From contig CM000207.1 of assembly GCA_000002445.1 (NCBI GenBank), forward strand, positions 544,001 to 608,000: 64,000 nt of DNA, given 5' to 3'. Each line of letters starts with the position of its first letter. The stretch's first letter is position 1. This DNA comes from Trypanosoma brucei. Lineage: Eukaryota. Below the pieces are notes generated by a model. It was given only the letters and a program-made list of their open reading frames with translations, did not search any database and was not told the DNA's origin. The position numbers and the translations under genes were made by a program. Of the stretch, positions 24,680 to 52,667 are shown piece after piece.

Positions 24680-26710
24680 TTAAAATCCAGGTTTTATCCC
24701 CCTGGTCAGTGTGGGAAACCCCTTCGGCTGCACTTTAGCATTGTTGATCTCCAGCACATCGCCCATCTTTTGATACTCAAACCTTCGACTCTTCTTCCCA
24801 TACGTACCACGCAGTTGGTCCAACATTTTCTTTGCAGCCTCTTCACGGTGCCAGCGATTGGTTAACATGAAAGTGTGCGCCATGTCATCAATGTCACTAG
24901 TTGGGACTTGGTCCACATACGGCTCAGCGTAGAACCCTTCCCACTTCAGTTGATCCTCTGCTTCAGCGTCAGAGTTGAAGGTTACTGCATGCGACAGAGG
25001 CCGCTCAACAGGAAGCGTGTCGACTCTACTATTACTGGACGCAAGATATTCATCCATATGAGGGTTTGTTTGTCGATACAAATGACGCATGCGCTCAGCT
25101 ACCGTTGGCGAGTCGTCACCACTCCGCTCTCCTTTTTCCTGACATTCCACCATCAACTCCTCATCATGTTGTTGTTTCCTTCGCCTTTCCTCTTCCTCCC
25201 GCTGCATTGCGCTTGCCGCCAGAAGTTCTTCTCGTTTGCGACTCTTCGCCTCCTGTTGAACCTCCTCCACATACCTCACAAGCGCATCACCATCAAAATT
25301 GTACGGAAGCGCCAAAAGTCCGTTCGCCCAATCAATATCGACATCAGGGGAAAGAACGAAGGTCATTTCCGACCAATCCCATGGAGCGAGCGAGGGGCCT
25401 ATACGGAACAGTTCCTTTGACCATTGTAACCGCTCGGCGTACGTGCAATCGTTGCTGAAGGCGTCGACACCTCCTGGCTCAACCATAGTGCGAAATTCTT
25501 TCAGATGCCACAGTGTAGATTCCAACATTTGCTTGGACAGCTCATACAGACGCTGCTGCAGTGGAAGTTTAGGCGAGATTGCCTTTAACCATGGGCGCAG
25601 CTGCTCCGAGGTGAGGCTGCAGTTAATGATAACCACACCGTTGGCTCGTGTTGCATGACGGTTCCCCACCTCCAGCGTTAACTTGGACAGCCCGTACTGA
25701 ATCAACAGCTCCCTGTTGCGGTGAAGCAGCTCCATCAACCGCAAAGCATCTTGGTGACTGCACGAAACTAGAATGTCATCTAATTCCAGCGCTGTGCAAA
25801 GCTCGGCAATAAGTTGTTCGATAGTTGATGCGTATTGAGTGGCAACCTCACGGCAGTGGGCAACCCCTTTTTCGTTATGTGCCATGAAGCTGTGAAACTG
25901 CTCAGGGGTAAAATCCCATGGAATCGTTATTGTGCCAGTGAGGTCACCGATGCTAAATTGGTTCGATACAATGACTGGCATTGACTCCCATGCCGAGTAG
26001 TTCAGTTCCCCGAGGTGGCGCTGCAGTGTGCTCAGAGCGGCGGCGGACTGCAGTGGTGAAAGATCCCGAGAAAACAGAATTTGGTCGGCTTCAATGAGTT
26101 CCTGCAGTGTTGGAGCGGGTGTAAGGCTCCACTGTACAGTCATACTTTCCACCGCCTCGTCAAGCAACGATTTAGGCCCAGTTGGGGCGCCTCGGTGTTG
26201 ACTTCCTCTCGGCCGCCGCCTCAGTGGTTTTGCTTCCGCACGCGCCGCCGTGGCGTCCTCTGCCTCGGATATCGACTCTGTCACGGAATCAATGCAAGCG
26301 GCCCGGCGAAGCAAATCGCGCAGGAATTTATTCACCGCACGTTCCACCGTTCCACGGTGATTGTCACTTGGTGCGAAATTCGAAGGGAGTTCAAAGGTAG
26401 ATTGGATGATTGTTGGCGATAATGACCCATCTCCCATGCTGCGGCCCACAAGCGAAGAAACTGGGGAACCGGACCCCTCCCTTCTTGTCTCACCATTACC
26501 CATGTTGTCGTCAGGTTTCCTGTAGAATGTAAGTGTAAATGACGAAGAGGGTGGCGGTTGAAGATGGCCACTCTTGAATGCCTTGGCCCAACTGAGCAAC
26601 TCATTGAGGCGGGCAACAGAACTTTCATTAACCGTCTGTTGGCTACGGTTGTGGTGGAAAAAGTCAGGATGCACCTTCAAAAAAAAGGAATGAAGGGCCT
26701 TCTTGTACAT
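24680..26710 (-). CDS. Hypothetical protein, possibly TCAIM-like (DUF4460/DUF4461) with an N-terminal J-like HPD motif.
   Basis: It is a 676-aa ORF with an ATG start. The N-terminus ALHSFFLKVHPDFFHH...NESSVARLNELL parallels the N-terminal DUF4460 consensus of TCAIM as I recall it (ALRPFYFAVHPDFF....NENSLKRL). The family assignment is from memory only. Confidence 0.6.
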   Translation of the reverse strand: MYKKALHSFFLKVHPDFFHHNRSQQTVNESSVARLNELLSWAKAFKSGHLQPPPSSSFTLTFYRKPDDNMGNGETRREGSGSPVSSLVGRSMGDGSLSPTIIQSTFELPSNFAPSDNHRGTVERAVNKFLRDLLRRAACIDSVTESISEAEDATAARAEAKPLRRRPRGSQHRGAPTGPKSLLDEAVESMTVQWSLTPAPTLQELIEADQILFSRDLSPLQSAAALSTLQRHLGELNYSAWESMPVIVSNQFSIGDLTGTITIPWDFTPEQFHSFMAHNEKGVAHCREVATQYASTIEQLIAELCTALELDDILVSCSHQDALRLMELLHRNRELLIQYGLSKLTLEVGNRHATRANGVVIINCSLTSEQLRPWLKAISPKLPLQQRLYELSKQMLESTLWHLKEFRTMVEPGGVDAFSNDCTYAERLQWSKELFRIGPSLAPWDWSEMTFVLSPDVDIDWANGLLALPYNFDGDALVRYVEEVQQEAKSRKREELLAASAMQREEEERRRKQQHDEELMVECQEKGERSGDDSPTVAERMRHLYRQTNPHMDEYLASSNSRVDTLPVERPLSHAVTFNSDAEAEDQLKWEGFYAEPYVDQVPTSDIDDMAHTFMLTNRWHREEAAKKMLDQLRGTYGKKSRRFEYQKMGDVLEINNAKVQPKGFPTLTRGIKPGF

Positions 26711-33130: not shown

Positions 33131-33880
33131 AACCAGCCACTACTGCCGTCACAAAAATGATGAAAAAAAAATCACAAAAAAAAAACAACTCAAACAGCGG
33201 ACAACTTAAAAACACTGTGCGGTAACCACCACAAATGCGCAGCTTCGCACTAGCGTATGTTTCACACTTCTTTTAATCTATGTCCTTCTTGTTGTTTCCT
33301 TCCCTGCTCCGCAAACACTACCGCGTTGTCACCCTTCGCGTTTGCAAGCGTCACCAACACACAGCAAGTAAGTAGTGAAATAAAACAGAAGGAGGAGAAA
33401 GTGACCTCACTGCAATGCAAAGATGGGGCAAACACCACCACCCCTCTCCGCAGAGCACAGCCCGCGTGCTCTCCCTTACCTTAATCTATCTTCAGGAGAC
33501 AAGCTCTGCGTGTGGTGGGAGACACACTTACCTCTTTTCAGCAAATGTGGTAATAAGGATAAAATAAAAAGATCAACGGAAGAAAGACAGAAAAGAACAC
33601 ATGAGAGACGAAAGGAGAGAATAAATAAAAAAACAGAGAGTTTAATGACGCATATGCACATGCGCAGCCGTTTTTCCTTTAAGAGAAAAACTTAAGGTAT
33701 CAGTTACACGGAAGCGAGTAATCCCACCAAAGGTGAGCCTACAGTTCTGGAGGTACCTTCCCATTACCTTATTATCGTATCTTGGTTCACCGCTTCTGTC
33801 ATTAAACCCGTCACATATGTTAGAGAAAAGCGCTCAAAGGCATGTACGACGACGAAAAACAGAACCTTCAGCCAAACAAA

Positions 33881-33884
<4 letters not shown>

Positions 33885-33913
<29 letters not shown>
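33885..33913. repeat. (TA)n microsatellite of about 15 units, with an imperfect extension to ~33933.
   Basis: Read directly. Confidence 0.95.
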
Positions 33914-33916
<3 letters not shown>

Positions 33917-34648
33917 AATATATATATGAATATCACAATATCGGTACACTTCAGAGAACCCACGCAACACGAAGCAATGCACCCCCATTACCACCACCCC
34001 ACCCGCCTTCCTCAAGCAACAGTACAAACCGCACCCCTGGATTAAAAGGAGGAGGTTGTCGCCAGCTCCGCTGTGAGGAACATAAATCTGCTAAAGCATT
34101 TGGGTGCATACGATAGTTGAGTAGGGATGCGAAGCGCAAATGCGACATCTTAGCGATTCGGTTGGAAGGGGTCGTCAGCAGTTTGCGAAGGGGGGGAGAA
34201 GGAGTCTAACAAAAACGATAATAGTTCTCCCTTTTTGTTAATCAGTTCATTTGCTATACGCAGTTACGTGCCTCTTCCGTCTTTTTTTTCTTTCTTTTAT
34301 GTACAGCGTCCATATTTAATTCCCCTCTCCCAAGTTGAGTTTGGGGAGGCGTACCGTTACCTTTTGACAATTCTGACATCCCTGGTCTAGTGACTCGAGC
34401 GACCCACCAGTACTAACCCTCGCAACCGCAACCCTCTAATTTTAACGTGTTCATGTGCTGAGGCAAATCAATTGTCCTAGCACATACACGGCGCGCAGGC
34501 AACAACGTGAGGAGTAAGAGATGTTGCTCCAACCAAATACCTTCTTCAACAGCCTCGCGGCAACAACAACAACAATAGGAATGCACGATTTCCCCCTTTC
34601 CACAAATACGGAAAACGGGAGCTGAAGAAATAGAACGAAGTAGACACA

Positions 34649-36469
34649 TCACTTAGTCTTTCTCCTCCGCCACAAAATGAATCCTGTTACCGTCAGAAAT
34701 GCGGCGCTTCCCACGAGCGGAATCAATACCCCATAGATCTGCGCCCTATTAAATCTGTAGCCACCCCAGTTTTGATAATCAGTGGAAATGTCTTTCGCCT
34801 TCCTCCCAGTCGTCCCACCACTCGCAGCATTTCTTCCCTGTCCCTCCTTTTCGGAAGCAGGACCACCCAACGACGATGCTGACATCACCCCGGGTTGCCC
34901 AGAAGCCGCCGCACCACCGCGCTCGGAAGCACCACGTCCAACAGTTGATTCCACCTTAATTCGACTAACCACAGGCAAATCGTACCACAATTTGGGATCA
35001 TTATAAAGAACGAGGGGCTGAGGTTTCTGGTTGACTTCGTGTTGGGAGGTTTGGATAAGGTACGTCGAAGGCGCGGAGTGCAACTCCTTAATAATGATAC
35101 GATAATTTTCAATGGGTTGGAACACAGCGTCAAATGCATCGAACAATGGGGCTAAATTCACACGCCGCCCCATAGCCTGAAGAAAGGACATGTTCTGAAG
35201 CGGCTCCAACTCTTCCACAGAAAGAACAACATCGGTGATGTCCTTTACCACATCGTCTTCGTAAATCGCCTCCACCCGCATGTTGGGCACCTCATCTGGG
35301 CACAAGCTAAGAACTTCATCACGATATTCCTTGCAGTTCACGTAACAAAAAGGAACGGCATAGCGCTTCCACACGGGACCATAACCAAACAAGACTTCAT
35401 CCGCTGATTTCAGCTGCTTCAGTACCTGGGCAAAATCGTAATGAAACTCCATCAGATCACCGGGAGTAAGGTCATGAAAGTGACGCGGACGGTAGTTAGT
35501 TACTAATGGGGCAACTACAAACTGCGCAACCGCCGTATGTGGTTGTCCAACCTTTCCAAAGCGTTGGTCTACTTTAATGTGCGGGAGTGAAGTCTTGCAA
35601 CGCTCGCGAAGAGGTGCCATAAAAGGTGAAACACTATGTAAGAGGGCGTTAGCGAAGGCTTCGAACGCATTTTTCTGAGCGGCCTCCCTCTTCTGTTGCC
35701 CCTTCGTTGGTTTTTTCCACCTCCGGTTACCGTTTGCCGTGAGAGGGGGCAAGGGCCGTCCAAATTCGTCAACATCATCATCACCGACACTTGAAGCCAT
35801 ACCATGCCCCCCTACAATACGGGACGTGCCGTGAACTCGATCGCCGTTGTGCTCCCTACCTTCCAGGTTAGTTAGTACAGTTTGTGCCTTCCCCTTCATT
35901 GCGGAGGCGGCCTTCAGCCACTTACCGCTCTGCAATGGTCTCACTACATCACATCCCGGAAGATCAGGGTACGCAGCAGGGTCAAGGATTGAGGCAGCAC
36001 CAGGTGTCGTCTTAGGAGTCGCACGTAATCCCTTCGGGTTGGAAACAGCATTTTCGGCCTCATGCTCCGCTGCTTCCTGTCTTCCCGGAGTGTCCTGCTC
36101 GCCGTTAAGCTGCCGCTCAAGGAGTTCTCGTGTAAGAGCCATGACGTTGTCAAACTCCTTCTTCCAATCTATTCCCTCAAGCGTAAACTCACCAACTTCC
36201 GTTGCATTCGGTGCTGAAATGCTTTGGCCGGCCAGCATAAACGAAGGGAAGTACGGAGGAGGATCACTAACCATGTCATTCCACTGCAACGTGTCATATT
36301 GTTCCTGCGGGGGTGAACCTGGAACGGTATTCATGCTACCATTCGTCCCTACTCCGCTCTTCTGCTCGAGTCCTTCACCTTCCGCAACGGCAGAATCTGG
36401 AAGGGAAAAAGCTGAAAAATCACCTGTTGGTACCCATTCCTTCGCATTCGCATTCAGCTGGCTAGTCAT
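34649..36469 (-). CDS. PAM2-motif protein (a predicted PABP MLLE-domain ligand) with a single C-terminal transmembrane tail anchor.
   Basis: It is a 606-aa ORF with an ATG start. Residues 4-14, SQLNANAKEWVP, closely match the Paip2-type PAM2 core NLNPNAKEFVP. The C-terminus IYGVLIPLVGSAAFLTVTGFILWRRRKTK is a hydrophobic helix followed by basic residues and then the stop. Confidence 0.7.
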   Translation of the reverse strand: MTSQLNANAKEWVPTGDFSAFSLPDSAVAEGEGLEQKSGVGTNGSMNTVPGSPPQEQYDTLQWNDMVSDPPPYFPSFMLAGQSISAPNATEVGEFTLEGIDWKKEFDNVMALTRELLERQLNGEQDTPGRQEAAEHEAENAVSNPKGLRATPKTTPGAASILDPAAYPDLPGCDVVRPLQSGKWLKAASAMKGKAQTVLTNLEGREHNGDRVHGTSRIVGGHGMASSVGDDDVDEFGRPLPPLTANGNRRWKKPTKGQQKREAAQKNAFEAFANALLHSVSPFMAPLRERCKTSLPHIKVDQRFGKVGQPHTAVAQFVVAPLVTNYRPRHFHDLTPGDLMEFHYDFAQVLKQLKSADEVLFGYGPVWKRYAVPFCYVNCKEYRDEVLSLCPDEVPNMRVEAIYEDDVVKDITDVVLSVEELEPLQNMSFLQAMGRRVNLAPLFDAFDAVFQPIENYRIIIKELHSAPSTYLIQTSQHEVNQKPQPLVLYNDPKLWYDLPVVSRIKVESTVGRGASERGGAAASGQPGVMSASSLGGPASEKEGQGRNAASGGTTGRKAKDISTDYQNWGGYRFNRAQIYGVLIPLVGSAAFLTVTGFILWRRRKTK

Positions 36470-37008
36470 CTTATTCTTTTTTCCTACCCCTAACTCGCCA
36501 CGTATGTTCTCCTTTATGGGGGATTATCCTTCCTACTAAAGTGGTTAATATGTGCGATGGTGAACACGATTGGGGGTACACGTAAATAAATATATATGTA
36601 TATTTGGTCATATTTACAGAGGGGAAATGAAGAGGGGAAACAAATAATACACCTGACAGGAAACCGCAACATCACTTACTTCGTGTTGGTGATGACGCCG
36701 GCCCACACTCACCCCCTCCCTTCTCCCACAGTCAAAAGGGGCTTAACAAAAAAAAATCCGCGCAATAAAACTCCAACGGAGATTCGAAGAACAGGCGGCA
36801 AAGCAAAGGAGAATAGTTACGCGTATATGCGTACTTCAATGTCGGGTTTAGGAACTTCCCCCTTGGTAGAGATAACGACACGTATAGAAAATAATGCGCG
36901 ATCCTCATTTCCCCCCCCCCAGTCCCTTATGTTAAGAGGAGTCCAACACCATGCGCGTCGATATGAACGGTCCGGTTGCGGACTCATCAATACTCCATAG
37001 ATCCGTCC

Positions 37009-38118
37009 CTACTCGGGGGAGAAAAAGCTCTCTAGGAACTTAGACAAGTATTTGTTGTATTCCATAACGTGTGGAAGGTCACGATGCCAACACTCCTTGA
37101 AACTCAGCAATAGTTGATGATGGAGAGCGAAGTAGCCAACCTCGAAATCGCTCGTCTCCTCCCCCTCCGAGCAGTCGACGGAATTTTGAGAGAGTGCACC
37201 GATTGATTGAGTCCCCACTTCCGACATCGCAGCAGCACTACGCAAACTACCGGTAAGAATTCCGGGTTTATGACCACGCGAAATTGTGTCATAAAGCACC
37301 TCTAGTTGTGGAAGAAACACCTTGTAGTCCCGTTGAAGGAGTAATTGGGCTGTAAACTGAATGGAGACAACAGCGAGAAGGTACCAATGATTCTTTTTAT
37401 CGGCTAGCGCACGCTTATTGAATTCCATCATTCCTTTTAGATGGTCATTATATGCCTCAGCAAAGTGCAGAAATTGGCGGAGAGCGAGCACACCACCACC
37501 ACGGAGGTCTGTCACGGGGTCCATGCCCTGAAACCCGAGATCGTTCCACTCGCTACTCCTTCGGGCGAATGCCGACTTTGGTTTCCCCGCCGCCACCCAC
37601 AACCTTTCCAGTAGCGCAATATGCTGTGGGTTTCCGTCGTCGAATGCCGTGGCCCGTTCCGCCTCTAAGCGAGCCGCCTGCTCCTCGCAACGGCATAACT
37701 GTTGCATCATATGACACACATGCTCCTCTGCACCATTTGCACCATCCGCAGGTGGTTGGTCGGCAGTCCCCACCGGGAACGCCTCCTGCAGGCACTCGAA
37801 GAGCTTACGATTAATTCTAATCGCTTTCTCCTCCCCGCCACGGAAGAAGAACACCAACTGCCCAACCGTGGTGATTTCCCCCTTCATTATGTGTTCAGCA
37901 GCCTTCTTCACGGCTAACTCTGGCTGGTTTACAGCAATATTAACACTCTGTAAAACCGGCGTGCGACGACAGACCTTTCGTGTTTGGCAACGGTATACCT
38001 TATATAAGAGGAACAACAAACCCCCTGCTCCAGCTACAAGCGCCGCCATTACGGGTGTCGGGAGACCGAAACACCTGCTATCGCTCCCCACTTCCAGACA
38101 AGACATACTGGAACCCAT
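37009..38118 (-). CDS. ELMO-domain protein (ELMOD-like, putative Arf/Arl GAP) with an N-terminal TM helix.
   Basis: It is a 369-aa ORF with an ATG start. It carries the ELMO signature SEWNDLGFQGMDPVTDLRGGGVLALRQFLHFAE (W..GFQG.DP.TDFRG.G consensus). The N-terminal hydrophobic segment is AALVAGAGGLLFLLY. Confidence 0.8.
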   Translation of the reverse strand: MGSSMSCLEVGSDSRCFGLPTPVMAALVAGAGGLLFLLYKVYRCQTRKVCRRTPVLQSVNIAVNQPELAVKKAAEHIMKGEITTVGQLVFFFRGGEEKAIRINRKLFECLQEAFPVGTADQPPADGANGAEEHVCHMMQQLCRCEEQAARLEAERATAFDDGNPQHIALLERLWVAAGKPKSAFARRSSEWNDLGFQGMDPVTDLRGGGVLALRQFLHFAEAYNDHLKGMMEFNKRALADKKNHWYLLAVVSIQFTAQLLLQRDYKVFLPQLEVLYDTISRGHKPGILTGSLRSAAAMSEVGTQSIGALSQNSVDCSEGEETSDFEVGYFALHHQLLLSFKECWHRDLPHVMEYNKYLSKFLESFFSPE

Positions 38119-42805: not shown

Positions 42806-45800
42806 TCATACGTAGCGCTCAGCAAACTTCAACAAGGGACCATCGAACTGCGCCCACTGGTAAAAGTCTGGTAATCCACCAACAACGGCACCAGGTTCAG
42901 TGAATGGCGTGGAAGATATGTTAGATGCTACCGAAGGGGATATTGTGCGGCACCGGCCATTAACTTCGCCTGCTTCCTGCCCTGACAAGTTCAATTTCGG
43001 CGTTGGTGTGCCCGCTTGCGCGTCAGTGTGTGCGCTCTCGCGGTACTGTCGGTAATATTTCGCCGCATCAATCAACAATTTGACACCCGATGGTTTTTCA
43101 TCCTGCGCGGCACGAAATGAGGAAACTCCCGCCGCAACAGCGTTACCCGATGGGGGCCCGCCTCCATTCACAGAGGCAGACGCACTGCCTTCCGTTCCCA
43201 AGCCAGAAGAGTCACCACCACCACCACCGTGCAGGGCAACCTTTTTGGCAAGTTGCCGCTCGTACTCCTCCACAGCATTCCATGACATAAGCTGCAGGGC
43301 TGCGGTAAGCAAAAACAATGGAGCGCAATAATACCCGCAAGGAGGAACACCGGTAGCACCTATATCCCTGCGGTGTCCAGGGTCAGGTACACCGTCCCTA
43401 AAGCACGGCATAAACCAAACATCAGCACGACATCGATTAGGGATGATACCAACAACTGGAATACGTGCGTAGAATGGTTGATCCGCAGATTGTAAAGTTG
43501 GACCGCAGTGGGAACCGAGGGAAGCAGTGTTGGTGGTTGAATCCACAAAGGAGAGCGATGGACTTGTATGTGTCGTCTCGTGAGCCACACCACTTGTAAT
43601 GGAGGCTTCACGGGCAGCCGCTGCATCCGCGCTGCTGCCATTCAAATCCACAGGCTTCTCGAAATTTGAGACGACGGCCGAACCCCCCGCAGCAATACCA
43701 CCAGCGGCTACGGAGGGTGATAAGGCTGGCGAAAGGGGTGCGGTGCAACCTGGAGACGCTGATTTCGGTGTCTGTGCTGTTGTTTGCTCTGCCACTGACA
43801 CTTCCCGCCGTGACGGGGCCCACATATCCCACCGTAAGGCTGCTCGGTCAGCACGAAAAACGGGACTCATCCAGCTCTTGTTCATGCATTCAAGAGCACT
43901 CGAAGACTGTGATAACGGCGCGATCTCATGACGTGGCGGCCGCGGTGCATAATAAACAATGAAACTGCCGCAATTGTGCTTGGCACAGTGGTTTTGATCG
44001 AACACAGGCCTCCAGAGCACAGCAATCCATGACTGGTAATCAAGTTCTGTGACGTTAGCAGTAAGAAGTACGGAATAGCGTGGATCCTGCGCGGCAAGAT
44101 CACGCACTTGCTCTAACACAAGGCTTCGTTGGTCAGGGCGTTCCGCGGCACCCCACGTGAGCCACCCCACACCGGAGCTATCATCCATCTCTTCTGATCC
44201 GTCACGTACCGTCGAAGCTGTTTCTACTGATCCCCTAGGTGTGGCACAATCCTTACCAGTTGCCGATTTTGTTATAGCAGGGTAGGTGCACGCAAGCGGG
44301 GGCTCATGGTCAGTATCCCCTTGGCCACTTTCCCCGGTGCAGACGCACGTCGGTGAAGTGCGGCCGCTAGCTGGCCGTCGTTGGAAGGCGTTACAGGAAT
44401 CGTCCCCCGATCTCGACTGCATAGCCTTCAGTTCCGCGTAGGTAGCGGACGATTCAAGAAAACGAAGCCGAAAACCACTAAGAAACGGACTATACACCAC
44501 GGTTTCCTGCGGAAATCGCATCGGCGTGAGGGGAACCGGTTGCGCTAGCCGAACCGCGCAGGCAAATGGCATGTCCAGCGACTCCCATATACAACGCAGA
44601 GGGATTAAGGGTTCAACAAACGTTGGAGGGTGACCTCCTCGAGATGGCGTGCGTTCCTCATTGCCGGGTGTTGCACTTTTTGGTGATGCAGTAGGCGACT
44701 CGACAAGGCGGGTGGCTAAAAGGATGGGAGAAACAGCACAGACAAATGAAACGATATTCCCGTAAACTTGCGGTTCAAATGGGATGTCGGCACCCCCCTC
44801 ATCAAAGAGATCCTCCAGTGCTCCATGTTGCTCATACATCGGAGGGTGGAGTGGCAAATGTCGGGCGTGGCCTGGTGCCCGCGCGTGACTCCACGGGCTT
44901 GCACTGCTTGGTGTCTGGGCTGTAGCCCTCCCGCCCCCATCCCCACATGTCAACCCCGACATTTGTGTGGGGCTTCCCTCTAACGGTTGCCGCCGGTGTT
45001 GAGAAGTAGGTGACTTCCACATGTAATTACCCGCAACACTCCTCACCGTTTCGTGGCCCCCTCCACCAGCAAGCAGGACGGGGCCCGACCGCTCACCACT
45101 CGCACATGATTCTGTGCAGGAGTAACCACCCTGATAAGCGATGCCCACTGCTATATTTGACCGATAGTGCTGCAAATCTTTAGGGGGTACGGGTTCCCAC
45201 TGCGATGCTCGGTGTGCTGTCGGAGACTTGTGTGAGCATCCTTGGTGATGCTTCGTCCCCAATGCTTCTGCTGCGGGAGGCCCACAAGTGGGAGACACAC
45301 CCGTCGGCGTATGTCCGAATAGGTTTGTTGGCTCCCCATACGGCTGCCTCTGATTGTGCAACATTTCCGTGTCGTGACCGTGATCACCAAGCATTGTTAG
45401 CGCTGGTGGTTTCAACTCTTGATTGCAAGAGATACATAGATTTCCCTCCCTTGCCTTCGGTTTCCCTTGATCGGTTTGACTTGTTTTTTGCCCAGCAGTA
45501 ACTTCGCACCCTGCGGCTCCCTGTTCATCTACCTTCCCAGGTAACTTGTTAGTTTTCTCCGTAGTGTTTATCTTGGTAGAGGCATACGACTCACCCTGTC
45601 CGCCGTTTTCACCCAGAGGGAACAAACCATCACTCTTATATTGACATGCATTTTGGTTACACCGTTTCCCAGCGTCGTTTGGGTGTAGGGGAAGTCCCCG
45701 GTGACCACCTTCGTCCAGCGAACAATGTTTTGTCCCCCCAAACGTCCTATTGTTTTCCCTGCTTCCGTCGTTGGAATTTTTACCATGACTATTTCTTCTT

Positions 45801-46942
45801 TCATTCAGATACCTAGAATCTCCAGGTGGGCCCGCAACACTTTTTTCTGTTTCCACACTTCGATCCAGAGCATCAGAACAATCCTCCTGACCAACCCCTG
45901 GTCCCCGCATGCTTCCCTCAACGAAAAAAGGAGGAGTTTCCCTAGAAGTGGAGCCGTCACCAGTATCACACCTCCTCCCGTCAACGTATGATGGAATGAT
46001 GCCCTTATTACCTCCACTCACCGCGGAGTCCGAGGGAAGCATCACACGCTCGTCGGTGCGTGGAGCTTCCCCGTAGAAGAACGTTGGAGGAGATGGATTT
46101 ATTGTGCCCCCAAAACACTGTTGGTGGTGACTATTGTGGTGAAAATTGTGATAGACCTGGTGTGGTTGATGATAACGATGTTGCTGCTGCTGCTGGTGCT
46201 CTCTATAGCGGTTCTGCTCATCCATCTGCTGACGAATTTGGTGGTATATGTAGGCGTCATCGTTGGTGGAAGGACCAGTTGCTATGGCAGTTGGGGCTGA
46301 TCGTGACAGGTAGCCGTAATGACGCGGGGTTGATCGCCACTGGTGGTTGTGACCATTGCCACTTGTACCTAACATGGCCGGCGCCAAAAGCGGTGGAACC
46401 AACCCTCCACAACCTGGTGGGGGCATACCAACAAATGGAGGAACCTGATGGAACGGACCCACCCGCTGCTGAGAAGGATTTTGCACACAATTTTCCATTG
46501 ACATATCCACAAACGAAGTTGCATCTGGAAGGGGAAGCGGTTGTGGCGGCTGCGGCACCGGGCGCGGACCTTCCCCAAATTGACCCCACCGATGTACCTG
46601 CTGACCAGATACCATTGAGGACTCAGCGGACCCCGGCGATGCGGCAACGCACGGGGCCCTTTGAGCAATTTTCATTAGCCATGGGCGCTGCGATTGCGAT
46701 GGTTGTTTCTGTTGCGGTTGATGTTTCTGAAAACTTGGTATGGGACCGCCTATAAGTGCCGGGGGTCCACTACGACACGTTGGTGCCTCCACGAAGACTC
46801 TCGAACAGTCTCCATTTCCCGCTGATGCGTCCATAACACACTGAAGGCCGTCCGCGCTACTACTACTAAGCTGACTCTTCGATGAAACATCACATGATAA
46901 CGGGGCAGTTACACCCTTCTCCACGTAAGTGTAGTTTAGCAT
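42806..46942 (-). CDS. Hypothetical large Q/H/P/G-rich low-complexity protein.
   Basis: It is a 1378-aa minus-strand ORF with an ATG start. It has long poly-Q/H and proline-rich stretches typical of trypanosome regulatory proteins. One more ordered region lies around GSFIVYYAPRPPRHEIAPL, and I recognised no known motif. Confidence 0.65.
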   Translation of the reverse strand: MLNYTYVEKGVTAPLSCDVSSKSQLSSSSADGLQCVMDASAGNGDCSRVFVEAPTCRSGPPALIGGPIPSFQKHQPQQKQPSQSQRPWLMKIAQRAPCVAASPGSAESSMVSGQQVHRWGQFGEGPRPVPQPPQPLPLPDATSFVDMSMENCVQNPSQQRVGPFHQVPPFVGMPPPGCGGLVPPLLAPAMLGTSGNGHNHQWRSTPRHYGYLSRSAPTAIATGPSTNDDAYIYHQIRQQMDEQNRYREHQQQQQHRYHQPHQVYHNFHHNSHHQQCFGGTINPSPPTFFYGEAPRTDERVMLPSDSAVSGGNKGIIPSYVDGRRCDTGDGSTSRETPPFFVEGSMRGPGVGQEDCSDALDRSVETEKSVAGPPGDSRYLNERRNSHGKNSNDGSRENNRTFGGTKHCSLDEGGHRGLPLHPNDAGKRCNQNACQYKSDGLFPLGENGGQGESYASTKINTTEKTNKLPGKVDEQGAAGCEVTAGQKTSQTDQGKPKAREGNLCISCNQELKPPALTMLGDHGHDTEMLHNQRQPYGEPTNLFGHTPTGVSPTCGPPAAEALGTKHHQGCSHKSPTAHRASQWEPVPPKDLQHYRSNIAVGIAYQGGYSCTESCASGERSGPVLLAGGGGHETVRSVAGNYMWKSPTSQHRRQPLEGSPTQMSGLTCGDGGGRATAQTPSSASPWSHARAPGHARHLPLHPPMYEQHGALEDLFDEGGADIPFEPQVYGNIVSFVCAVSPILLATRLVESPTASPKSATPGNEERTPSRGGHPPTFVEPLIPLRCIWESLDMPFACAVRLAQPVPLTPMRFPQETVVYSPFLSGFRLRFLESSATYAELKAMQSRSGDDSCNAFQRRPASGRTSPTCVCTGESGQGDTDHEPPLACTYPAITKSATGKDCATPRGSVETASTVRDGSEEMDDSSGVGWLTWGAAERPDQRSLVLEQVRDLAAQDPRYSVLLTANVTELDYQSWIAVLWRPVFDQNHCAKHNCGSFIVYYAPRPPRHEIAPLSQSSSALECMNKSWMSPVFRADRAALRWDMWAPSRREVSVAEQTTAQTPKSASPGCTAPLSPALSPSVAAGGIAAGGSAVVSNFEKPVDLNGSSADAAAAREASITSGVAHETTHTSPSLSFVDSTTNTASLGSHCGPTLQSADQPFYARIPVVGIIPNRCRADVWFMPCFRDGVPDPGHRRDIGATGVPPCGYYCAPLFLLTAALQLMSWNAVEEYERQLAKKVALHGGGGGDSSGLGTEGSASASVNGGGPPSGNAVAAGVSSFRAAQDEKPSGVKLLIDAAKYYRQYRESAHTDAQAGTPTPKLNLSGQEAGEVNGRCRTISPSVASNISSTPFTEPGAVVGGLPDFYQWAQFDGPLLKFAERYV

Positions 46943-49114: not shown

Positions 49115-50725
49115 TTACTCTGCAGCGTACAATACATCCAACAATGCGGTCACCAATGTACGCGTCGAGCGGTCTGTGGATGACTCATCGACTAGAGGTA
49201 AAACAATAGCCTCCACCTGCCTCAACTTGTCGTAGTAAAACTGTCGCTCTCTAGTGGCTTTAAGCAATGCTGCTGCTGCCACCGCGGAGTCACCCTCGCT
49301 GCTGCTTTCCCCGCGGCTCCCTGAGCGTGACATTCCCGCTGACATGGAAGGTGTTGCCGCCGACACCGATTGCAGAAGCTTCCCTGACGCATTTTTCGAC
49401 ATCAGGGGTGATACTATCATCTCCACTGAAGCATGGGGGTCAACCGCACACCGTTCCCTCACATTTGAAGGATTCACCACACCGGAAAGGGAGTTTCTGC
49501 TCCTTACCGCGGTCCTCACAGGGGTAGTACCACCAGGCCGGCACGTGCGTTCGGAGATGTCGCCGCTACCACTAAGAACACCAGAACTGCTACCTGCATT
49601 ATTAGTCTTAGGCGGTATCATCGGTTGGTCACGGCCCCTGCGCACAATGTTGGGCCCCACAGCGCCTGACTTGGTTGTTGTAGCTTCTCCCATCGGAGTC
49701 ATATCCTTGTCATCGGTGGTGGATTCACTCGTCGATAACGGCGGTGTCTGCTTGTCCTCTACGGCTGCCGCTGCCTCGCCCGCAAACGCGGTACGGGGGC
49801 GAAACCCACTTCCCTCTTTCCCTGGTAGTGAGTGGCGGGGATTCGAGCGGCCGCGCATCGTGGGGGACTGTTGCGTAGCTCCACGTGGGCCGGTACTGTT
49901 CGTGTCCAGAAGCCGCCGCGCCCCGGCAGGGGTTGTGACCCTTGACCTATCCACAGGGGTGGACGTCCGTCTGGATATGGGAGACTTCTTTATACCATCC
50001 ACTGGTGCAGTGTGAAGTGTGGAAGTGCTCACAGCAGCAGGACCTTGAATGACGGGAGGCTCAGTGGATGGCGTTAACTTGCCCGAGCAACACACAGAAG
50101 TCGTTCGTGGAGATCCCCTCTTCAGCCCGGGGGCATCCCCGCGAGACGGTAACACTGCGCGGGAAGCTGCCGGTTTATCGTCGTTGGTGCCGACAGAGGT
50201 GCTATGCTGGCTCTGCTCAGAGATCAGTGACGCATCCTCTGAAGCATCGCAGTGGCGATACCTTGGTTGCCGCTGATATCCCGTCTCACCACTGTACTCC
50301 CCCCGACCGTTCTGCGGCATAAGCACATCACCAAGGCCACGGAACCACTGCAAGAGCTGCAGGTTGGCCTGGAATGCACCTTTTATAAGCTTATCCACAT
50401 CGTCCACAAGCACCTCAGGGGGCGGAATGCCGTTCTTCTGTAGAGCATCAGCCATGAGCTTCAGGTTCGACACTGCTTCAAAGTCATGTCTTGCGGGTAC
50501 CTTAGCTCTTGCTATAAGAGCTGGATGCACGAACGGAAGCATCTGCGGAAGCAACAGCACGTATGGCACACCATTGCCGCAGTGCTCCACTTTGCGCAAT
50601 CGAGGCACTTCATAGCCTGAGGCCGTCACGTGAGGCATAAGGTCATTAAGCCACGCAAGAAGCTCGGTACGCGTTCCACGTGATGGAACAATGTTCACCA
50701 GCCCATGGGTATTGCGATGGTCCAT
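49115..50725 (-). CDS. EB1: EB1 microtubule plus-end-binding protein, with an N-terminal CH domain, a long S/T/P-rich linker and a C-terminal EB-homology domain.
   Basis: The ORF-track start at 50758 is a TTG; the first ATG is at 50725 (MDHRNTHGL...). The CH domain SRTELLAWLNDLM..VEHCGNGVPYVLLLPQMLPFVHPALIARAKVPARHDFEAVSNLKLM..QWFR aligns with human EB1 SRHDMLAWINESL...QWFK. The C-terminal ERQFYYDKLRQVEAIV matches the EBH motif ERDFYFGKLRNIELI. Confidence 0.85.
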   Translation of the reverse strand: MDHRNTHGLVNIVPSRGTRTELLAWLNDLMPHVTASGYEVPRLRKVEHCGNGVPYVLLLPQMLPFVHPALIARAKVPARHDFEAVSNLKLMADALQKNGIPPPEVLVDDVDKLIKGAFQANLQLLQWFRGLGDVLMPQNGRGEYSGETGYQRQPRYRHCDASEDASLISEQSQHSTSVGTNDDKPAASRAVLPSRGDAPGLKRGSPRTTSVCCSGKLTPSTEPPVIQGPAAVSTSTLHTAPVDGIKKSPISRRTSTPVDRSRVTTPAGARRLLDTNSTGPRGATQQSPTMRGRSNPRHSLPGKEGSGFRPRTAFAGEAAAAVEDKQTPPLSTSESTTDDKDMTPMGEATTTKSGAVGPNIVRRGRDQPMIPPKTNNAGSSSGVLSGSGDISERTCRPGGTTPVRTAVRSRNSLSGVVNPSNVRERCAVDPHASVEMIVSPLMSKNASGKLLQSVSAATPSMSAGMSRSGSRGESSSEGDSAVAAAALLKATRERQFYYDKLRQVEAIVLPLVDESSTDRSTRTLVTALLDVLYAAE

Positions 50726-51437
50726 CGGTAACGATAATAACGGGGACGGTGGTAACAACGGTTGCAGTTCTTTGGTCTTACTGCCTACTTCACCAAACTA
50801 TATAAAACTTTATATTTCTCACAATCCTCTTTCTTTATTTTTGTATATGTAGCCCATGTAAAATAAAAACGGAAAGAGAGAGGCTGCAGATGCGAAACCC
50901 CACCGCCTACAACATTTCGTGTGGAGAGGTACGAAGATGTGACTGAAACACCCCTTGGTTAAGGACATACAATTTAAGGGCATTAAGGGAATTGCCCTCC
51001 GCCGTCAGACTCGCAACATGTTGCGTGAACATATCCAGCATATAAGAATATGCATATCCATTGTTGTCAGCGCTCCCGGTTGCGGCCCTCCCCATGGTAC
51101 CATCTCCCATCATTTTATGAAAATGGCACTCAAAACATTTAGTTACGCGGCATCAACAACAAGTGCACGTTCCCCGCCTTCTTCCCCCCTACCCCAACAT
51201 TACATTCCTCGAGTCACGTCGGAGTATGCGAGGACACAAAACGCTACTTTTCTAAATTCGACAGGCCGTATCACTCCATAGCCACACTGGACCAAATTTG
51301 CCCTCGCTCTTCACAGCGTACTGTGTGCAATGGCACGTGCCTAGAAAGAGCAATCACGAAAAACTGTGGTTGTAAAAAGACTCACGATGTCAATCACCAT
51401 TTCGGTTTAATTTCCCCACTCAGTCAGACAACTCGCT

Positions 51438-51638: not shown

Positions 51639-52667
51639 CTAGCAGGGTGCCAATATACCGAGGCGCACAGTGGTACAATCCTCGGAGGGAACAAGCTCAC
51701 AGGGATGACGCCGGGCTACGTGTTTTAGCCAACGCTGCCGAGAGAGGAAGGTCGCCATGCAATCATCATACGGACATGTAAACGTAACGTTCTCTCCATA
51801 CGAGTGCAGACCAGCCTCCGCTGCCGAAATATTTAGCACTTCAGCCGAGTTAACATTCTGCTGGGCAGCAAAACTCTGAGCCACACCTGCACAGCGCCTT
51901 GAAACTATCAAGCGACTGCGCTTAGTTCTCTTGCGCAACGGGGACCCCTCGTCAGCGTCGCCACAAAGGTCAACAGAGAATACATCGTCATCGATACCAC
52001 AGTCGCCAAAAACATCATCGCGGAATGGACAATAGCACCTTAGATGCCGCTTCAACTGACGACGGTCGGCAAGTTCCTGTTCACAGTTTGGGCAAACGAA
52101 AAATGTATCAGCGGGACCAACGACAAACTCAGTGGGAGGAGGAGCACACGTGTTAACCCTAACTTGTGTGTTGTCTCGGTCGGACCAACTAAGTACACGA
52201 GGTGGGTTAGGCCTGGAAGAGCAGTGACGCTCATGCCTGGTCCGCTTCCCCTTACAGGAAAATCCAACGTTGCAAAAACGACAGTTTATTCCCTCATCAG
52301 AAGTGGTGGATGAAGCATTCGGTGCCCCTTCATTGCAATCTAAAGCTGCAGTTGACTGCCGAGGAGCGCTACCGGAAGATGCAGCCACCGGTGGCACTAC
52401 TACCTCAGGATGGAGGGTCCGAATATGTCTCTTCATGTTTGTGTTGGTTGTGAAGCCAACTAAGCACACATAGCACTTGTACGGCCTCTCCTTCGTATGA
52501 GTGAGGAGATGTCGGCGGAAATGCGTCCCACCGCTGCTGTCCGGGCTGCGCCTCGTGGTGTAACAGCAGTACGGACAGCGCATAATCAAGTTCCTGAGGC
52601 GCCGCCGCTTCCCAGAAACCGTCCGAGTGGGAACCTCCACTGCACCGCTGCAGCCTTCGTTATCCAT
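51639..52667 (-). CDS. Multi-C2H2 zinc-finger protein.
   Basis: It is a 342-aa ORF with an ATG start. At least five C-x2-C-x12-H-x3-5-H fingers are present, for example YKCYVCLVGFTTNTNMKRHIRTLH, FVCPNCEQELADRRQLKRHLRCYC and FTCPYDDCMATFLSRQRWLKHVARRH. Confidence 0.75.
   Translation of the reverse strand: MDNEGCSGAVEVPTRTVSGKRRRLRNLIMRCPYCCYTTRRSPDSSGGTHFRRHLLTHTKERPYKCYVCLVGFTTNTNMKRHIRTLHPEVVVPPVAASSGSAPRQSTAALDCNEGAPNASSTTSDEGINCRFCNVGFSCKGKRTRHERHCSSRPNPPRVLSWSDRDNTQVRVNTCAPPPTEFVVGPADTFFVCPNCEQELADRRQLKRHLRCYCPFRDDVFGDCGIDDDVFSVDLCGDADEGSPLRKRTKRSRLIVSRRCAGVAQSFAAQQNVNSAEVLNISAAEAGLHSYGENVTFTCPYDDCMATFLSRQRWLKHVARRHPCELVPSEDCTTVRLGILAPC

What the first reader, a model, noticed from the sequence alone, without database searches (positions are those of the whole stretch)
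34649..36469. Tail-anchored protein beginning with a Paip2-like PAM2 motif
The first 14 residues, MTSQLNANAKEWVP, are almost identical to the PAM2 core of Paip2 (NLNPNAKEFVP), which binds the MLLE domain of poly(A)-binding protein. The protein ends with a single hydrophobic helix plus a basic tail (..FILWRRRKTK-stop), which is the classic tail-anchor topology. Together these features suggest a membrane-tethered PABP-recruiting factor, for example on the ER or the mitochondrial outer membrane. Such a factor could localise mRNAs or translation to a membrane surface.
Basis: partly seen in the sequence, partly recalled or inferred. Interest (0 to 1): 0.6.

Follow-up and report, generated by a model that had tools for sequence, protein, structure and literature searches.

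The report
Mitochondrial-surface protein with PABP-binding motif
This Trypanosoma brucei gene (Tb927.9.2650, POMP2) encodes a known tail-anchored mitochondrial outer-membrane protein, and its conserved, previously unremarked tip looks like a docking motif for poly(A)-binding protein, so it may tether mRNAs to the mitochondrial surface.

Summary
The ORF at 34649..36469 (-) encodes 606 aa. It begins MTSQLNANAKEWVP and ends in one hydrophobic helix followed by WRRRKTK.

The gene is T. brucei Tb927.9.2650, called POMP2 (T. cruzi Tc8.2). Published proteomics already place it in the mitochondrial outer membrane, so the anchor and location are not new.

The PAM2 reading is new, as far as the searchable literature shows, and it holds up:
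- The core [LM]N..A.[EA]W.P is present in 29 of 30 orthologues across Kinetoplastida.
- It recurs in 14 of 17 distant full-length non-dinoflagellate relatives, including Diplonema. Some of these carry the canonical Phe.
- The flanking sequence is unconserved and predicted disordered.
- In kinetoplastids the aromatic residue is always Trp. This is the "PAM2w" variant, so far described only for LARP4 and LARP4B.

Public raw data give some support. PABP1/PABP2 pull-downs yield about 3-fold more POMP2 peptides than controls, whereas VDAC and ATOM40 show no bait preference. A tethering screen shows weak boxB-dependent activation, below its cut-off.

It has a remote GalT/HIT-like fold and lacks the histidine triad.

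Direct MLLE binding and any role in mRNA localisation remain untested.

The parts
34649..36469 (-). Complete ORF of Tb927.9.2650 (POMP2; T. cruzi Tc8.2), 606 aa plus stop codon
   Evidence: Exact match to TREU927 Q38FQ5. Gene ID and length from the Zoltner 2018 supplement. Named POMP2 in the Erben 2014 supplement.
36428..36469 (-). N-terminal PAM2w-type motif, aa 1-14 MTSQLNANAKEWVP (core L5-N-A-N-A9-K-E-W12-V-P14)
   Evidence: Pfam PAM2 at aa 1-16, 16.5 bits, E 0.0064. The core is conserved in 29/30 orthologues, with N6, A9, W12 and P14 at 90% or more. It recurs with F or W in distant relatives.
35707..36427 (-). Disordered N-terminal half (aa 15-254). It contains conserved islands: phi-x-LP-x-S/T (aa 20-27), PPPYFPS (aa 70-76) and an amphipathic helix at aa 99-121 (W102 invariant)
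   Evidence: pLDDT below 50 except for helix 102-121, which scores about 88. Conservation from alignment A1.
34970..35706 (-). Conserved folded domain (aa ~255-500) with a remote GalT/HIT-like alpha+beta fold and no histidine triad. Invariant residues include H297, K299, D301, Q302, R303, H330, E341, H343, D345, W367, K368, C379, C390, E393 and N396
34745..34969 (-). Disordered Gly/Ser/Ala-rich spacer (aa ~501-575) between the folded domain and the membrane anchor
   Evidence: pLDDT below 50 for aa 505-575. Not conserved in alignment A1.
34652..34744 (-). Tail anchor: transmembrane helix (aa ~576-599, IYGVLIPLVGSAAFLTVTGFIL) plus the basic C-terminal tail WRRRKTK
   Evidence: Hydropathy scan. 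AF2 helix 575-605. A C-terminal TMD with a net-positive tail is present in 29/30 orthologues. The TM helix was also noted for T. cruzi Tc8.2 at aa 564-586.
36470..36660 (-). 5' flank: pyrimidine-rich tract (~36620-36660), first downstream AG at about 36537 (candidate spliced-leader acceptor), and an ATG-free stretch up to the start codon
   Evidence: Read directly from the sequence. In-frame stop 18 codons upstream. The acceptor is inferred, not mapped.

Best explanation
Tb927.9.2650 (POMP2) is a tail-anchored protein of the mitochondrial outer membrane, and its whole N-terminal portion faces the cytosol.

A Trp-type PAM2 motif (PAM2w) sits at the extreme N-terminus, at the end of a disordered tether of about 250 residues. 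I propose that this motif docks into the MLLE domain of cytoplasmic poly(A)-binding protein, PABP2 and/or PABP1. That would hold PABP, and so polyadenylated mRNPs, at the mitochondrial surface. A conserved GalT/HIT-like domain that lacks the catalytic histidine triad lies between the tether and the membrane. It presumably binds a second, unknown ligand or partner.

Shown here or in published data:
- the ORF, its start and its stop;
- the motif and its deep conservation;
- the tail-anchor architecture;
- the outer-membrane location (published proteomics);
- preferential recovery with PABP baits (raw peptide counts).

Inferred:
- direct PAM2w-MLLE contact;
- which PABP paralogue is bound;
- the consequence for mRNA, whether local translation of mitochondrial proteins, mRNA stabilisation, or sequestration of PABP;
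- what the folded domain does.
For: 1. Motif. Residues 5-14, LNANAKEWVP, carry the PAM2 determinants: Leu at consensus position 3, Ala at 7, an aromatic at 10 and Pro at 12. Pfam PAM2 matches aa 1-16 with E 0.0064.

2. Conservation. The core is present in 29/30 orthologues from Trypanosoma, Leishmania, Phytomonas, Bodo and environmental kinetoplastids, within an otherwise unalignable disordered region.

3. Co-occurrence beyond orthologues. Of 17 full-length non-dinoflagellate distant relatives of the central domain, 14 carry the motif near the N-terminus.
- Canonical Phe forms: LRADAVPFVP, LNADAPAFTP, FNAEAPAFIP.
- Trp forms: Diplonema ambulator LRPDAKEWTP, among others.
- F/W interchange at the position that enters the MLLE pocket is what PAM2 and PAM2w show.

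4. Kinetoplastid precedent. The Leishmania eIF4E4 PAM2, MNPNATEFMP, binds the PABP1 MLLE with a Kd of about 20-30 nM and has a crystal structure (PMC6379680). The Leishmania orthologue of POMP2 reads LNPNATEWKP.

5. Trp variants can bind MLLE, as shown for LARP4 and LARP4B (PMC11565960 and its references).

6. Topology. There is a single C-terminal TMD with a basic tail. The protein is in the outer-membrane proteome and on the OM list of spatial proteomics.

7. In vivo association, from Zoltner 2018 raw table S1A. Peptide counts for Tb927.9.2650:
- PABP1 runs: 4, 5, 3, 1
- PABP2 runs: 4, 6, 4, 5
- wild-type controls: 2, 1, 1, 1
The bait/control ratio is 3.2. The abundant outer-membrane proteins VDAC and ATOM40 give 0.91 and 1.03.

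8. Tethering screen (Erben 2014). ORF-level reads persist or rise under 6-10x blasticidin only when boxB is present: 1.5x and 2.3x, against 0.007x without boxB.
Against: - No direct binding data exist.
- The Pfam PAM2 score is below the gathering threshold (16.5 against 20 bits). Only the T. brucei sequence among 30 orthologues passes E<0.1.
- A published proteome-wide HMMER scan for PAM2 in trypanosomes reports only mRNA-metabolism proteins and does not mention this one (PMC11754739).
- The gene ID does not occur in the main text of the Zoltner paper. That paper notes mitochondrial proteins among likely contaminants of the high-salt pull-downs.
- Only peptide counts were available. Intensities and the sheets listing enriched proteins were not stored.
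- No orthologue ID matching the prefixes I searched (LinJ.26.18, LmjF.26.1860, LINF_26002) was identified in the Leishmania PABP IP supplements. The L. infantum ID was guessed and only 7 passages were shown, so this is a weak negative. The gene ID was absent from the T. brucei eIF4E interactome supplements.
- The tethering enrichment is weak and, by my calculation, just under the authors' cut-off. The column order was inferred from the legend.
- In LARP4 the PAM2w is among the weakest MLLE binders and also binds poly(A).
- Immunolocalisation of T. cruzi Tc8.2 reported cytoplasm, or nucleus and kinetoplast, rather than a clear outer-membrane pattern.
Confidence: 0.6

Rival explanations
1. The N-terminal Trp motif works mainly as a direct poly(A)-RNA contact, or as a switch between poly(A) and MLLE, as described for the LARP4A PAM2w. 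POMP2 would then bind poly(A) tails at the mitochondrial surface itself. PABP would be recovered with it through shared RNA rather than through an MLLE contact.
For: - Trp at consensus position 10 is invariant in all 29 kinetoplastid motifs. Canonical PAM2 motifs, including kinetoplastid eIF4E4, use Phe.
- In LARP4, W22F keeps MLLE binding but strongly impairs poly(A) binding, and poly(A) competes with MLLE for the motif (PMC11565960).
- Recovery with both PABP1 and PABP2 would fit RNA-mediated co-purification.
Against: - Distant relatives use Phe at this position. That argues Trp is not essential to the family's ancestral function.
- LARP4 binds poly(A) through the motif together with a La module, and nothing comparable flanks the motif here.
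- Pro at position 12 and Leu at position 3, both MLLE determinants, are also conserved.
Confidence: 0.12
2. The motif is a conserved N-terminal element with a partner or role unrelated to PABP or poly(A). Candidates are a cytosolic targeting or quality-control factor, an intramolecular contact with the GalT/HIT-like domain, or a kinetoplastid-specific adaptor. The resemblance to PAM2 would then be convergent, and the PABP pull-down signal would be background.
For: - The Pfam score is sub-threshold, and HMMER detects the motif in only one orthologue.
- The protein was not highlighted in the PABP or PAM2 studies.
- The PABP evidence rests on peptide counts only.
- The N-terminal region holds several other conserved short elements whose partners are unknown.
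Against: - All four PAM2 specificity positions are kept over the whole of Euglenozoa, with F/W interchange.
- The motif is 8/10 identical to a crystallographically validated kinetoplastid PAM2.
- Control outer-membrane proteins are not bait-enriched in the same experiment.
- The tethering signal depends on boxB.
Confidence: 0.18
3. The protein is primarily an enzyme or nucleotide-binding protein acting through its GalT/HIT-like domain, for example on a nucleotide-linked substrate, an mRNA 5' cap or a 5' end. The PAM2w would only deliver substrate mRNAs or regulate that activity. mRNA turnover or processing at the mitochondrial surface, rather than localisation, would be the point.
For: - The domain is by far the most conserved part: 48-85% identity to the T. 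brucei sequence across the 15-sequence domain alignment A2, with about 50 invariant residues, many polar.
- The nearest folds are GalT, ADP-glucose phosphorylase, CDP-DAG pyrophosphatase, HIT hydrolases, aprataxin, CWF19L2 and DcpS. All of these handle nucleotides or nucleic-acid ends.
Against: - Profile comparison with E. coli GalT is not significant, and there is no PDB sequence hit.
- The strand where HIT proteins carry HxHxH reads PFCYVNC, and the second half has no His motif either (read from the sequence together).
- H330 is not kept in the dinoflagellate relatives.
Confidence: 0.1

Closest known systems
LARP4 / LARP4B PAM2w motif (human; MLLE complexes solved)
   Same: Both have a near-N-terminal PAM2 variant with Trp instead of Phe at consensus position 10, of the form LN[PA]NA..W. 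The LARP4 sequence LNPNAKVW is quoted from memory. The property is cited from PMC11565960.
   Different: LARP4 is a soluble La-module RNA-binding protein whose motif lacks Pro at position 12. POMP2 keeps Pro12, has no La or RRM domain and is membrane-anchored. The literature describes PAM2w as unique to LARP4/4B, so this would be an independent second family.
Kinetoplastid eIF4E4 / eIF4E3 N-terminal PAM2 motifs binding PABP1/PABP2
   Same: Same organisms and the same presumed receptor. Leishmania eIF4E4 reads MNPNATEFMP, against LNPNATEWKP in Leishmania POMP2. In both cases the motif lies in a disordered N-terminal extension. T. cruzi eIF4E3 binds both PABP MLLEs.
   Different: The eIF4E proteins are soluble cap-binding factors that close the mRNA loop, and they use Phe. 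POMP2 is on the mitochondrial outer membrane, uses Trp and has one motif rather than two or three.
Paip2 / Paip1 / ataxin-2 / eRF3 canonical PAM2 proteins
   Same: They share the consensus Leu3, Ala7, aromatic 10 and Pro12.
   Different: All of these are soluble regulators of translation or decay. There is no homology outside the motif. The Pfam PAM2 gathering score is not reached here.
Ustilago maydis Upa1/Upa2: PAM2-bearing adaptors that couple Pab1/Rrm4 mRNPs to endosomes
   Same: This is the closest functional analogy: an organelle-associated protein using PAM2-type motifs to hold PABP-containing mRNPs on a membrane surface. Upa2 was the only PAM2+MLLE paper returned by the membrane-oriented literature search. 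The Upa1 details are from my own knowledge.
   Different: Upa1 binds endosomes peripherally through a FYVE domain and also has PAM2-like motifs for the Rrm4 MLLEs. POMP2 is an integral tail-anchored protein of mitochondria. The two are not homologous.
Mitochondrial outer-membrane mRNA/translation tethers: AKAP1, Drosophila MDI-Larp, SYNJ2BP, yeast Puf3/OM14 (own knowledge)
   Same: These are outer-membrane-anchored or outer-membrane-associated factors that concentrate mRNAs or ribosomes at the mitochondrial surface for local translation.
   Different: They use KH/Tudor, PDZ, PUF or NAC-receptor interactions. None is known to act through a PAM2-MLLE contact, and none is homologous to POMP2.
GalT branch of the HIT superfamily and CWF19L2 pseudo-HIT domains
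   Same: These are the best structural neighbours of the central domain by two methods and two models. The beta-beta-alpha-beta-beta-alpha unit occurs twice in one chain.
   Different: There is no sequence-level relationship, TM-scores are only about 0.3, and the HxHxH / HxHxQ catalytic motif is absent.

Membership tests
PAM2 (PABP-interacting motif 2; Pfam PF07145 / ELM LIG_PAM2_1) | Sequence consensus: hydrophobic (Leu) at position 3, Asn/Ser at 4, Ala at 7, aromatic at 10, Pro (or Tyr/Leu/Phe) at 12 | tested here: met
   L5, N6, A9, W12 and P14 are present. The ELM-type regular expression (recalled from memory) matches aa 3-15 and matches 25/30 orthologues. A relaxed core matches 29/30.
PAM2 (PABP-interacting motif 2; Pfam PF07145 / ELM LIG_PAM2_1) | Score at or above the Pfam gathering threshold (20 bits) | tested here: not met
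   16.5 bits, E 0.0064. Only 1 of 30 orthologues is reported at E<0.1. The shortfall probably comes from Trp in place of Phe and Ala in place of Pro, but that is my inference.
PAM2 (PABP-interacting motif 2; Pfam PF07145 / ELM LIG_PAM2_1) | Location in an intrinsically disordered, accessible (cytosolic) region | tested here: met
   pLDDT is about 50 or lower over aa 1-96. The tail-anchor topology puts the N-terminus in the cytosol (inference).
PAM2 (PABP-interacting motif 2; Pfam PF07145 / ELM LIG_PAM2_1) | Direct binding to the MLLE/PABC domain of PABP, sensitive to mutation of positions 3 and 10 | not testable with these tools
   Only indirect data are available: a 3.2-fold excess of peptides in PABP pull-downs, against 0.9-1.0 for VDAC and ATOM40.
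PAM2w variant (LARP4/LARP4B type) | Trp replaces Phe at consensus position 10 | tested here: met
   W12 is conserved in at least 90% of A1 rows and occupies the aromatic position in all 29 kinetoplastid motifs. The definition of PAM2w is from PMC11565960.
PAM2w variant (LARP4/LARP4B type) | Belongs to a LARP4-type protein (La module + RRM downstream) | tested here: not met
   No La or RRM domain is found by Pfam, and the architecture is different. It works like a PAM2w but the protein is not a LARP4 family member.
Tail-anchored membrane protein | Single TMD within about 30 residues of the C-terminus, with no signal peptide or other TMD | tested here: met
   The TMD spans aa ~576-599 of 606. 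The next best hydropathy window scores 0.95. AF2 predicts a helix at 575-605.
Tail-anchored membrane protein | Mitochondrial outer-membrane signature: moderately hydrophobic TMD with a basic C-terminal flank, plus experimental outer-membrane location | tested here: met
   Kyte-Doolittle mean 2.18 and a +5 tail, conserved in 29/30 orthologues. POMP2 naming. 'mitochondrion - OM' in PMC10361982 supplement file 7. The insertion pathway and orientation were not tested.
HIT superfamily, GalT branch | HIT alpha+beta fold, duplicated in one chain | tested here: inconclusive
HIT superfamily, GalT branch | Catalytic histidine motif (HxHxHxx or HxHxQ) on the last strand of the HIT unit | tested here: not met
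   The corresponding strands read PFCYVNC (aa 373-379) and STYLIQTS (aa 468-475). hhalign against E. coli GalT gives probability 0.2%. The residue correspondence is inferred from the order of secondary-structure elements, not from a printed structural alignment.

The most novel reading that the evidence does not exclude
POMP2 defines an ancient Euglenozoa-wide class of organelle-anchored PABP receptors. It would be the first integral mitochondrial outer-membrane protein in any eukaryote to capture polyadenylated mRNPs directly through a PAM2(w)-MLLE contact. Its GalT/HIT-like pseudo-enzyme domain would act as a second, nucleotide- or cap-sensing module, coupling mRNA recruitment or local translation to mitochondrial state. 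This would matter especially in an organism that regulates genes almost entirely after transcription and remodels its mitochondrion between life-cycle stages.
Probability: 0.3. Interest if true: 0.8.

Novelty: new variant of a known kind. Interest (0 to 1): 0.6.

Why it matters
Trypanosomes control gene expression almost entirely after transcription, and they rebuild their single mitochondrion during the life cycle. How, or whether, mRNAs are brought to the mitochondrial surface in these organisms is unknown.

A tail-anchored outer-membrane protein with a conserved PABP-docking motif would give a simple, directly testable mechanism for this. It would also add a membrane-anchored architecture to the PAM2 protein repertoire. 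And it would show that the Trp variant, PAM2w, is not restricted to LARP4 and LARP4B.

According to RIT-seq data as summarised in PMC4566500, the gene causes a fitness defect in bloodstream forms. The protein and its central domain have no homologue detectable at sequence level in Pfam or the PDB, and the only relatives recovered are from Euglenozoa and dinoflagellates.

The anchor and the location were already known. The new elements are the motif, its link to existing PABP data, and the fold assignment of the central domain.

Tried and rejected
1. Pfam on the whole protein and on all 30 orthologues gave only the sub-threshold PAM2 hit. There is no domain model for the central region.
4. Literature:
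   - 'POMP2' as a whole word together with 'brucei' found nothing, and the name phrase also found nothing.
   - Niemann 2013 and Pyrih 2023 are not held in the library.
   - No paper combines PAM2/MLLE with a mitochondrial outer-membrane or tail-anchored protein.
5. The gene ID is absent from the T. brucei eIF4E interactome supplements. No orthologue ID under the searched prefixes was identified in the Leishmania PABP IP supplements, though the L. infantum ID was guessed. These are negative results of limited weight.
6. The PAM2 table in the supplement of PMC11754739 is not held. Absence of POMP2 from that scan is inferred from the main text only.
7. A PAM2w-MLLE complex model was considered and abandoned.
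8. I considered that the start codon might be Met46. I rejected this because the motif is conserved directly after the first Met in most orthologues and no upstream start is possible.
9. I considered ER rather than mitochondrial anchoring. I rejected this on the published outer-membrane proteomics.
Full report
**What is there.** The minus-strand ORF 34649..36469 encodes a 606-aa protein. It begins MTSQLNANAKEWVP and ends ...VLIPLVGSAAFLTVTGFILWRRRKTK*. It is identical to Trypanosoma brucei TREU927 Q38FQ5/XP_803575. The matching length, strand and coordinates in a proteomics supplement identify it as Tb927.9.2650.

[quoted passage not shown] The T. brucei gene is labelled 'POMP2, mitochondrial membrane' in the Erben 2014 tables. 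It also appears in a 'mitochondrion - OM' list of the 2023 spatial proteome. The T. cruzi orthologue was studied in 2015 as 'Tc8.2' (PMC4566500). That paper noted the C-terminal TM helix, left the function unknown and did not mention PAM2 or PABP. It also summarises RIT-seq data as showing a defect in bloodstream forms only.

**Start codon.** The ATG at 36469 is the first possible start after an in-frame stop 18 codons upstream. So the protein cannot begin further upstream. The next Met is residue 46. In most orthologues the initiator Met sits 0-4 residues before the motif. In three environmental sequences the Met itself occupies the Leu position (MNINASEWVP and similar). This echoes the Met in the Leishmania eIF4E4 motif MNPNATEFMP.

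Upstream there is a pyrimidine tract, then the first AG at about 36537, with no ATG between that AG and the start. This fits the annotated start but is not a mapped acceptor. In T. cruzi, a forward primer placed on the ATG and motif codons amplifies cDNA.

**Is the motif more than chance?** A PAM2-type regular expression occurs in 1-1.5% of shuffles of this protein. In 26,064 aa of stop-free six-frame translation of the window it occurs only at this site. The decisive evidence is conservation.
- In a 30-sequence alignment with 26% mean column identity, N6, A9, W12 and P14 are at least 90% conserved.
- The core [LM]N..A.[EA]W.P is present in 29/30 sequences. The exception is a sequence that also lacks the C-terminal anchor and appears incomplete.
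- The surrounding ~250 residues are predicted disordered (pLDDT below 50) and are largely unalignable.

A profile of the central domain, searched against 1.8 billion representative proteins, found only 60 relatives. Of the 17 distant full-length, non-dinoflagellate relatives, 14 again carry the motif near the N-terminus. Some have the canonical Phe: LRADAVPFVP, LRPDAAPFVP, LNADAPAFTP, FNAEAPAFIP. Others have Trp: LRADAPEWKP, LRPDAKEWTP in Diplonema ambulator, LNADAPAWSP. A 10-residue motif that travels with one domain family across Euglenozoa, with F/W exchange at the pocket residue, is a functional short linear motif.

**How good is the PAM2 assignment?** The motif has all four PAM2 specificity positions. 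The Leishmania orthologue (LNPNATEWKP) is 8/10 identical to the Leishmania eIF4E4 PAM2 (MNPNATEFMP). That eIF4E4 motif has a solved complex with the PABP1 MLLE and a Kd of about 2-3 x 10^-8 M (PMC6379680).

Two qualifications apply. First, the Pfam model scores only 16.5 bits against a 20-bit cut-off, and only the T. brucei sequence is reported at E<0.1. This may explain why a published HMMER scan for PAM2 in trypanosome proteomes lists G1-IP1, G5-IP, CE1, 4E-IP2 and RBP35 but not this protein (PMC11754739). Some Leishmania annotations (L. infantum, L. panamensis) also start 20 residues downstream and omit the motif. Second, the aromatic residue is invariably Trp in kinetoplastids. This is the PAM2w variant, described as unique to LARP4/LARP4B. 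In LARP4 it binds MLLE relatively weakly and also binds poly(A) directly (PMC11565960). The Trp may therefore mean more than 'a Paip2-like motif', and I keep direct poly(A) binding as a rival explanation.

**Evidence for PABP association in existing data.** The raw table of Zoltner et al. 2018 (PABP1 and PABP2 cryomill pull-downs against wild type) gives these peptide counts:

| Protein | PABP1 runs | PABP2 runs | Wild-type controls | Bait/control ratio |
|---|---|---|---|---|
| Tb927.9.2650 | 4, 5, 3, 1 | 4, 6, 4, 5 | 2, 1, 1, 1 | 3.2 |
| VDAC | 15, 9, 10, 1 | 14, 12, 13, 8 | 16, 7, 14, 8 | 0.91 |
| ATOM40 | 6, 4, 6, 1 | 4, 4, 4, 2 | 5, 3, 5, 2 | 1.03 |

POMP2 therefore behaves differently from bulk outer-membrane contamination. 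These are only peptide counts, however. The sheets listing enriched proteins were not stored. The gene ID does not occur in the paper's main text, and the paper regards mitochondrial proteins as likely contaminants of the high-salt pull-downs.

In the Erben 2014 lambdaN-boxB tethering screen, ORF-level reads for POMP2 behave as follows. The column order is inferred from the legend.
- Library A: 220, 246, 109, 370
- Library B: 170, 221, 149, 644, 520
- No-boxB control (library C): 86, 139, 208, 149, 0
- Enrichment is 1.5x and 2.3x with boxB, and about 0 without it.

That is what a small activating fragment diluted among inactive fragments would give. It falls just below the authors' cut-off, and the per-position data could not be read.

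Negative results: the gene ID was absent from the eIF4E interactome supplements. No orthologue ID under the prefixes I searched was identified in the Leishmania PABP IP supplements; this is a weak negative, because the L. infantum ID was guessed.

**Topology.** There is a single hydrophobic segment at aa ~576-599 (Kyte-Doolittle 2.18; the next best elsewhere is 0.95). It is followed by seven residues with net charge +5. AF2 models it as a helix at 575-605. The same arrangement holds in 29/30 orthologues. It also places the whole N-terminal part in the cytosol. The orientation is inferred from the tail-anchor rule, not measured. Diplonemid-type relatives keep the motif and domain but lack a TMD. 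Dinoflagellate relatives fuse the domain to an N-terminal polytopic membrane region and show no PAM2.

Residues ~255-500 form a confidently predicted globular domain (pLDDT mostly above 90; pTM 0.80 when modelled alone). It is the most conserved part of the protein. Identity to the T. brucei sequence is 48-85% across the 15-sequence domain alignment A2. About 50 columns are invariant, among them H297, K299, D301, Q302, R303, H330, E341, H343, D345, K368, C379, C390, E393 and N396. It has no Pfam model and no sequence relative in the PDB.
- Foldseek, on two independent models, again returns GalT, ADP-glucose phosphorylase, CDP-diacylglycerol pyrophosphatase, DUF4931 and CWF19L2. Probability is 0.94-0.99, but TM is only about 0.3 and E about 2e-3.
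- The secondary structure is a twice-repeated beta-beta-alpha-beta-beta-alpha unit, as in the single-chain double-HIT GalT branch.
- The strands where HIT enzymes carry HxHxH read PFCYVNC and STYLIQTS. hhalign against E. coli GalT is not significant.

I therefore describe it as a remote GalT/HIT-like fold without the catalytic triad. It is probably a ligand- or partner-binding module. I do not file it as a HIT family member.

**Mechanism proposed.** POMP2 is anchored by its tail in the mitochondrial outer membrane. It holds a GalT/HIT-like domain near the membrane and projects a ~250-residue disordered arm whose tip is a PAM2w. The tip binds the MLLE of PABP2 and/or PABP1, or, less likely, poly(A) itself. 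This concentrates polyadenylated mRNPs or PABP at the organelle surface.

The arm carries further conserved islands that may recruit other factors: phi-x-LP-x-S/T, a PPxY-like PPPYFPS, and an amphipathic helix at aa 99-121 with invariant W102.

The architecture, conservation, location and a PABP-biased pull-down signal are shown. The direct contact and the downstream effect on mRNA are inferred. I put about 0.6 on the PABP-docking reading.

**Comparison with known systems.**
- At motif level the nearest relatives are LARP4/4B PAM2w and the kinetoplastid eIF4E3/4 PAM2s.
- At system level the nearest analogue is the fungal endosomal adaptor Upa1/Upa2. It uses PAM2-type motifs to hold Pab1/Rrm4 mRNPs on a membrane (plus my own knowledge).
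- Mitochondrial mRNA tethers such as AKAP1, MDI-Larp and SYNJ2BP use other interactions (own knowledge).
- No paper in the searchable library combines PAM2/MLLE with a mitochondrial outer-membrane or tail-anchored protein.

**Verdict.** The gene, its anchor and its location are known. The PAM2w motif, its Euglenozoa-wide linkage to a novel domain, and the supporting signal hidden in public PABP data appear not to have been described. I class it as a new variant of a known kind: a PAM2-bearing PABP partner in a new, membrane-anchored architecture with the rare Trp variant.

Interest is 0.6. It offers a concrete, cheap-to-test entry into mRNA and translation localisation at the trypanosome mitochondrion. 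The central claim still lacks a direct binding test.

Noticed in passing
P0025 (L. infantum) and P0030 (L. panamensis), compared with P0021 (L. tarentolae) and P0020/P0023 (Leptomonas): The L. infantum and L. panamensis orthologues are annotated from an internal Met (MTDLALPP...). This lies 20 residues downstream of the MSHLNPNATEWKP start seen in close relatives. It is probably a start-codon misannotation that removes the PAM2w from these proteomes.
   Followed up: partly
window 35707..36427 (-), aa 15-254 of the protein: The disordered arm contains further conserved short elements of unknown function: phi-x-LP-x-S/T at aa 20-27 (L23, P24 at 90% or more), a PPxY/LPxY-like PPPYFPS at aa 70-76 (P71, P75 at 90% or more), and a confidently predicted amphipathic helix at aa 99-121 with invariant W102.
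   Followed up: partly
P0086-P0101 (e.g. P0087, Biecheleria cincta) and P0073/P0075/P0078/P0079 (diplonemid type): The central domain occurs in other architectures. In dinoflagellate-type proteins it follows a polytopic N-terminal membrane region and no PAM2 is seen. In diplonemid-type proteins it keeps the PAM2 and a Gln-rich linker but has no TMD, ending ...LGLRKRTA.
   Followed up: partly
window 37009..38118 (-): The gene immediately upstream in the polycistron encodes a 369-aa protein with an ELMO/CED-12 domain (Pfam E 2.3e-30) and a hydrophobic N-terminal segment.
   Followed up: no
window 42806..46942 (-), Tb927.9.2730: A 1378-aa DUF789-containing protein. It also appears with 2 peptides in the PABP pull-down raw table. 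Its window position is offset by 57 nt from the position expected from the v5.1 coordinates of Tb927.9.2650, which implies a small intergenic length difference between assemblies.
   Followed up: no
window 49115..50758 (-), 51639..52667 (-), 55652..56938 (-), 24680..26710 (-): Other genes in the same minus-strand transcription unit: an EB1-like protein (C-terminal EB1 motif), a C2H2 zinc-finger protein, an IGP-family C-type-lectin-like protein (DUF5075, E 8e-76), and a DUF4460/DUF4461 protein.
   Followed up: no
window ~33800..33990: An intergenic simple repeat downstream of the POMP2 stop. It is visible as IYIYIYIYI in both strands' spurious ORFs, which points to a (TA)-rich or TATATA-type tract, presumably within the 3' UTR or intergenic region.
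   Followed up: no
PMC4566500 (T. cruzi Tc8.2): The only dedicated paper on this family reports different transcript sizes (3.0 against 4.4 kb), different protein sizes (70 against 80 kDa), and cytoplasmic against nuclear/kinetoplast immunostaining between life stages. This does not obviously match an outer-membrane protein and remains unexplained.
   Followed up: no
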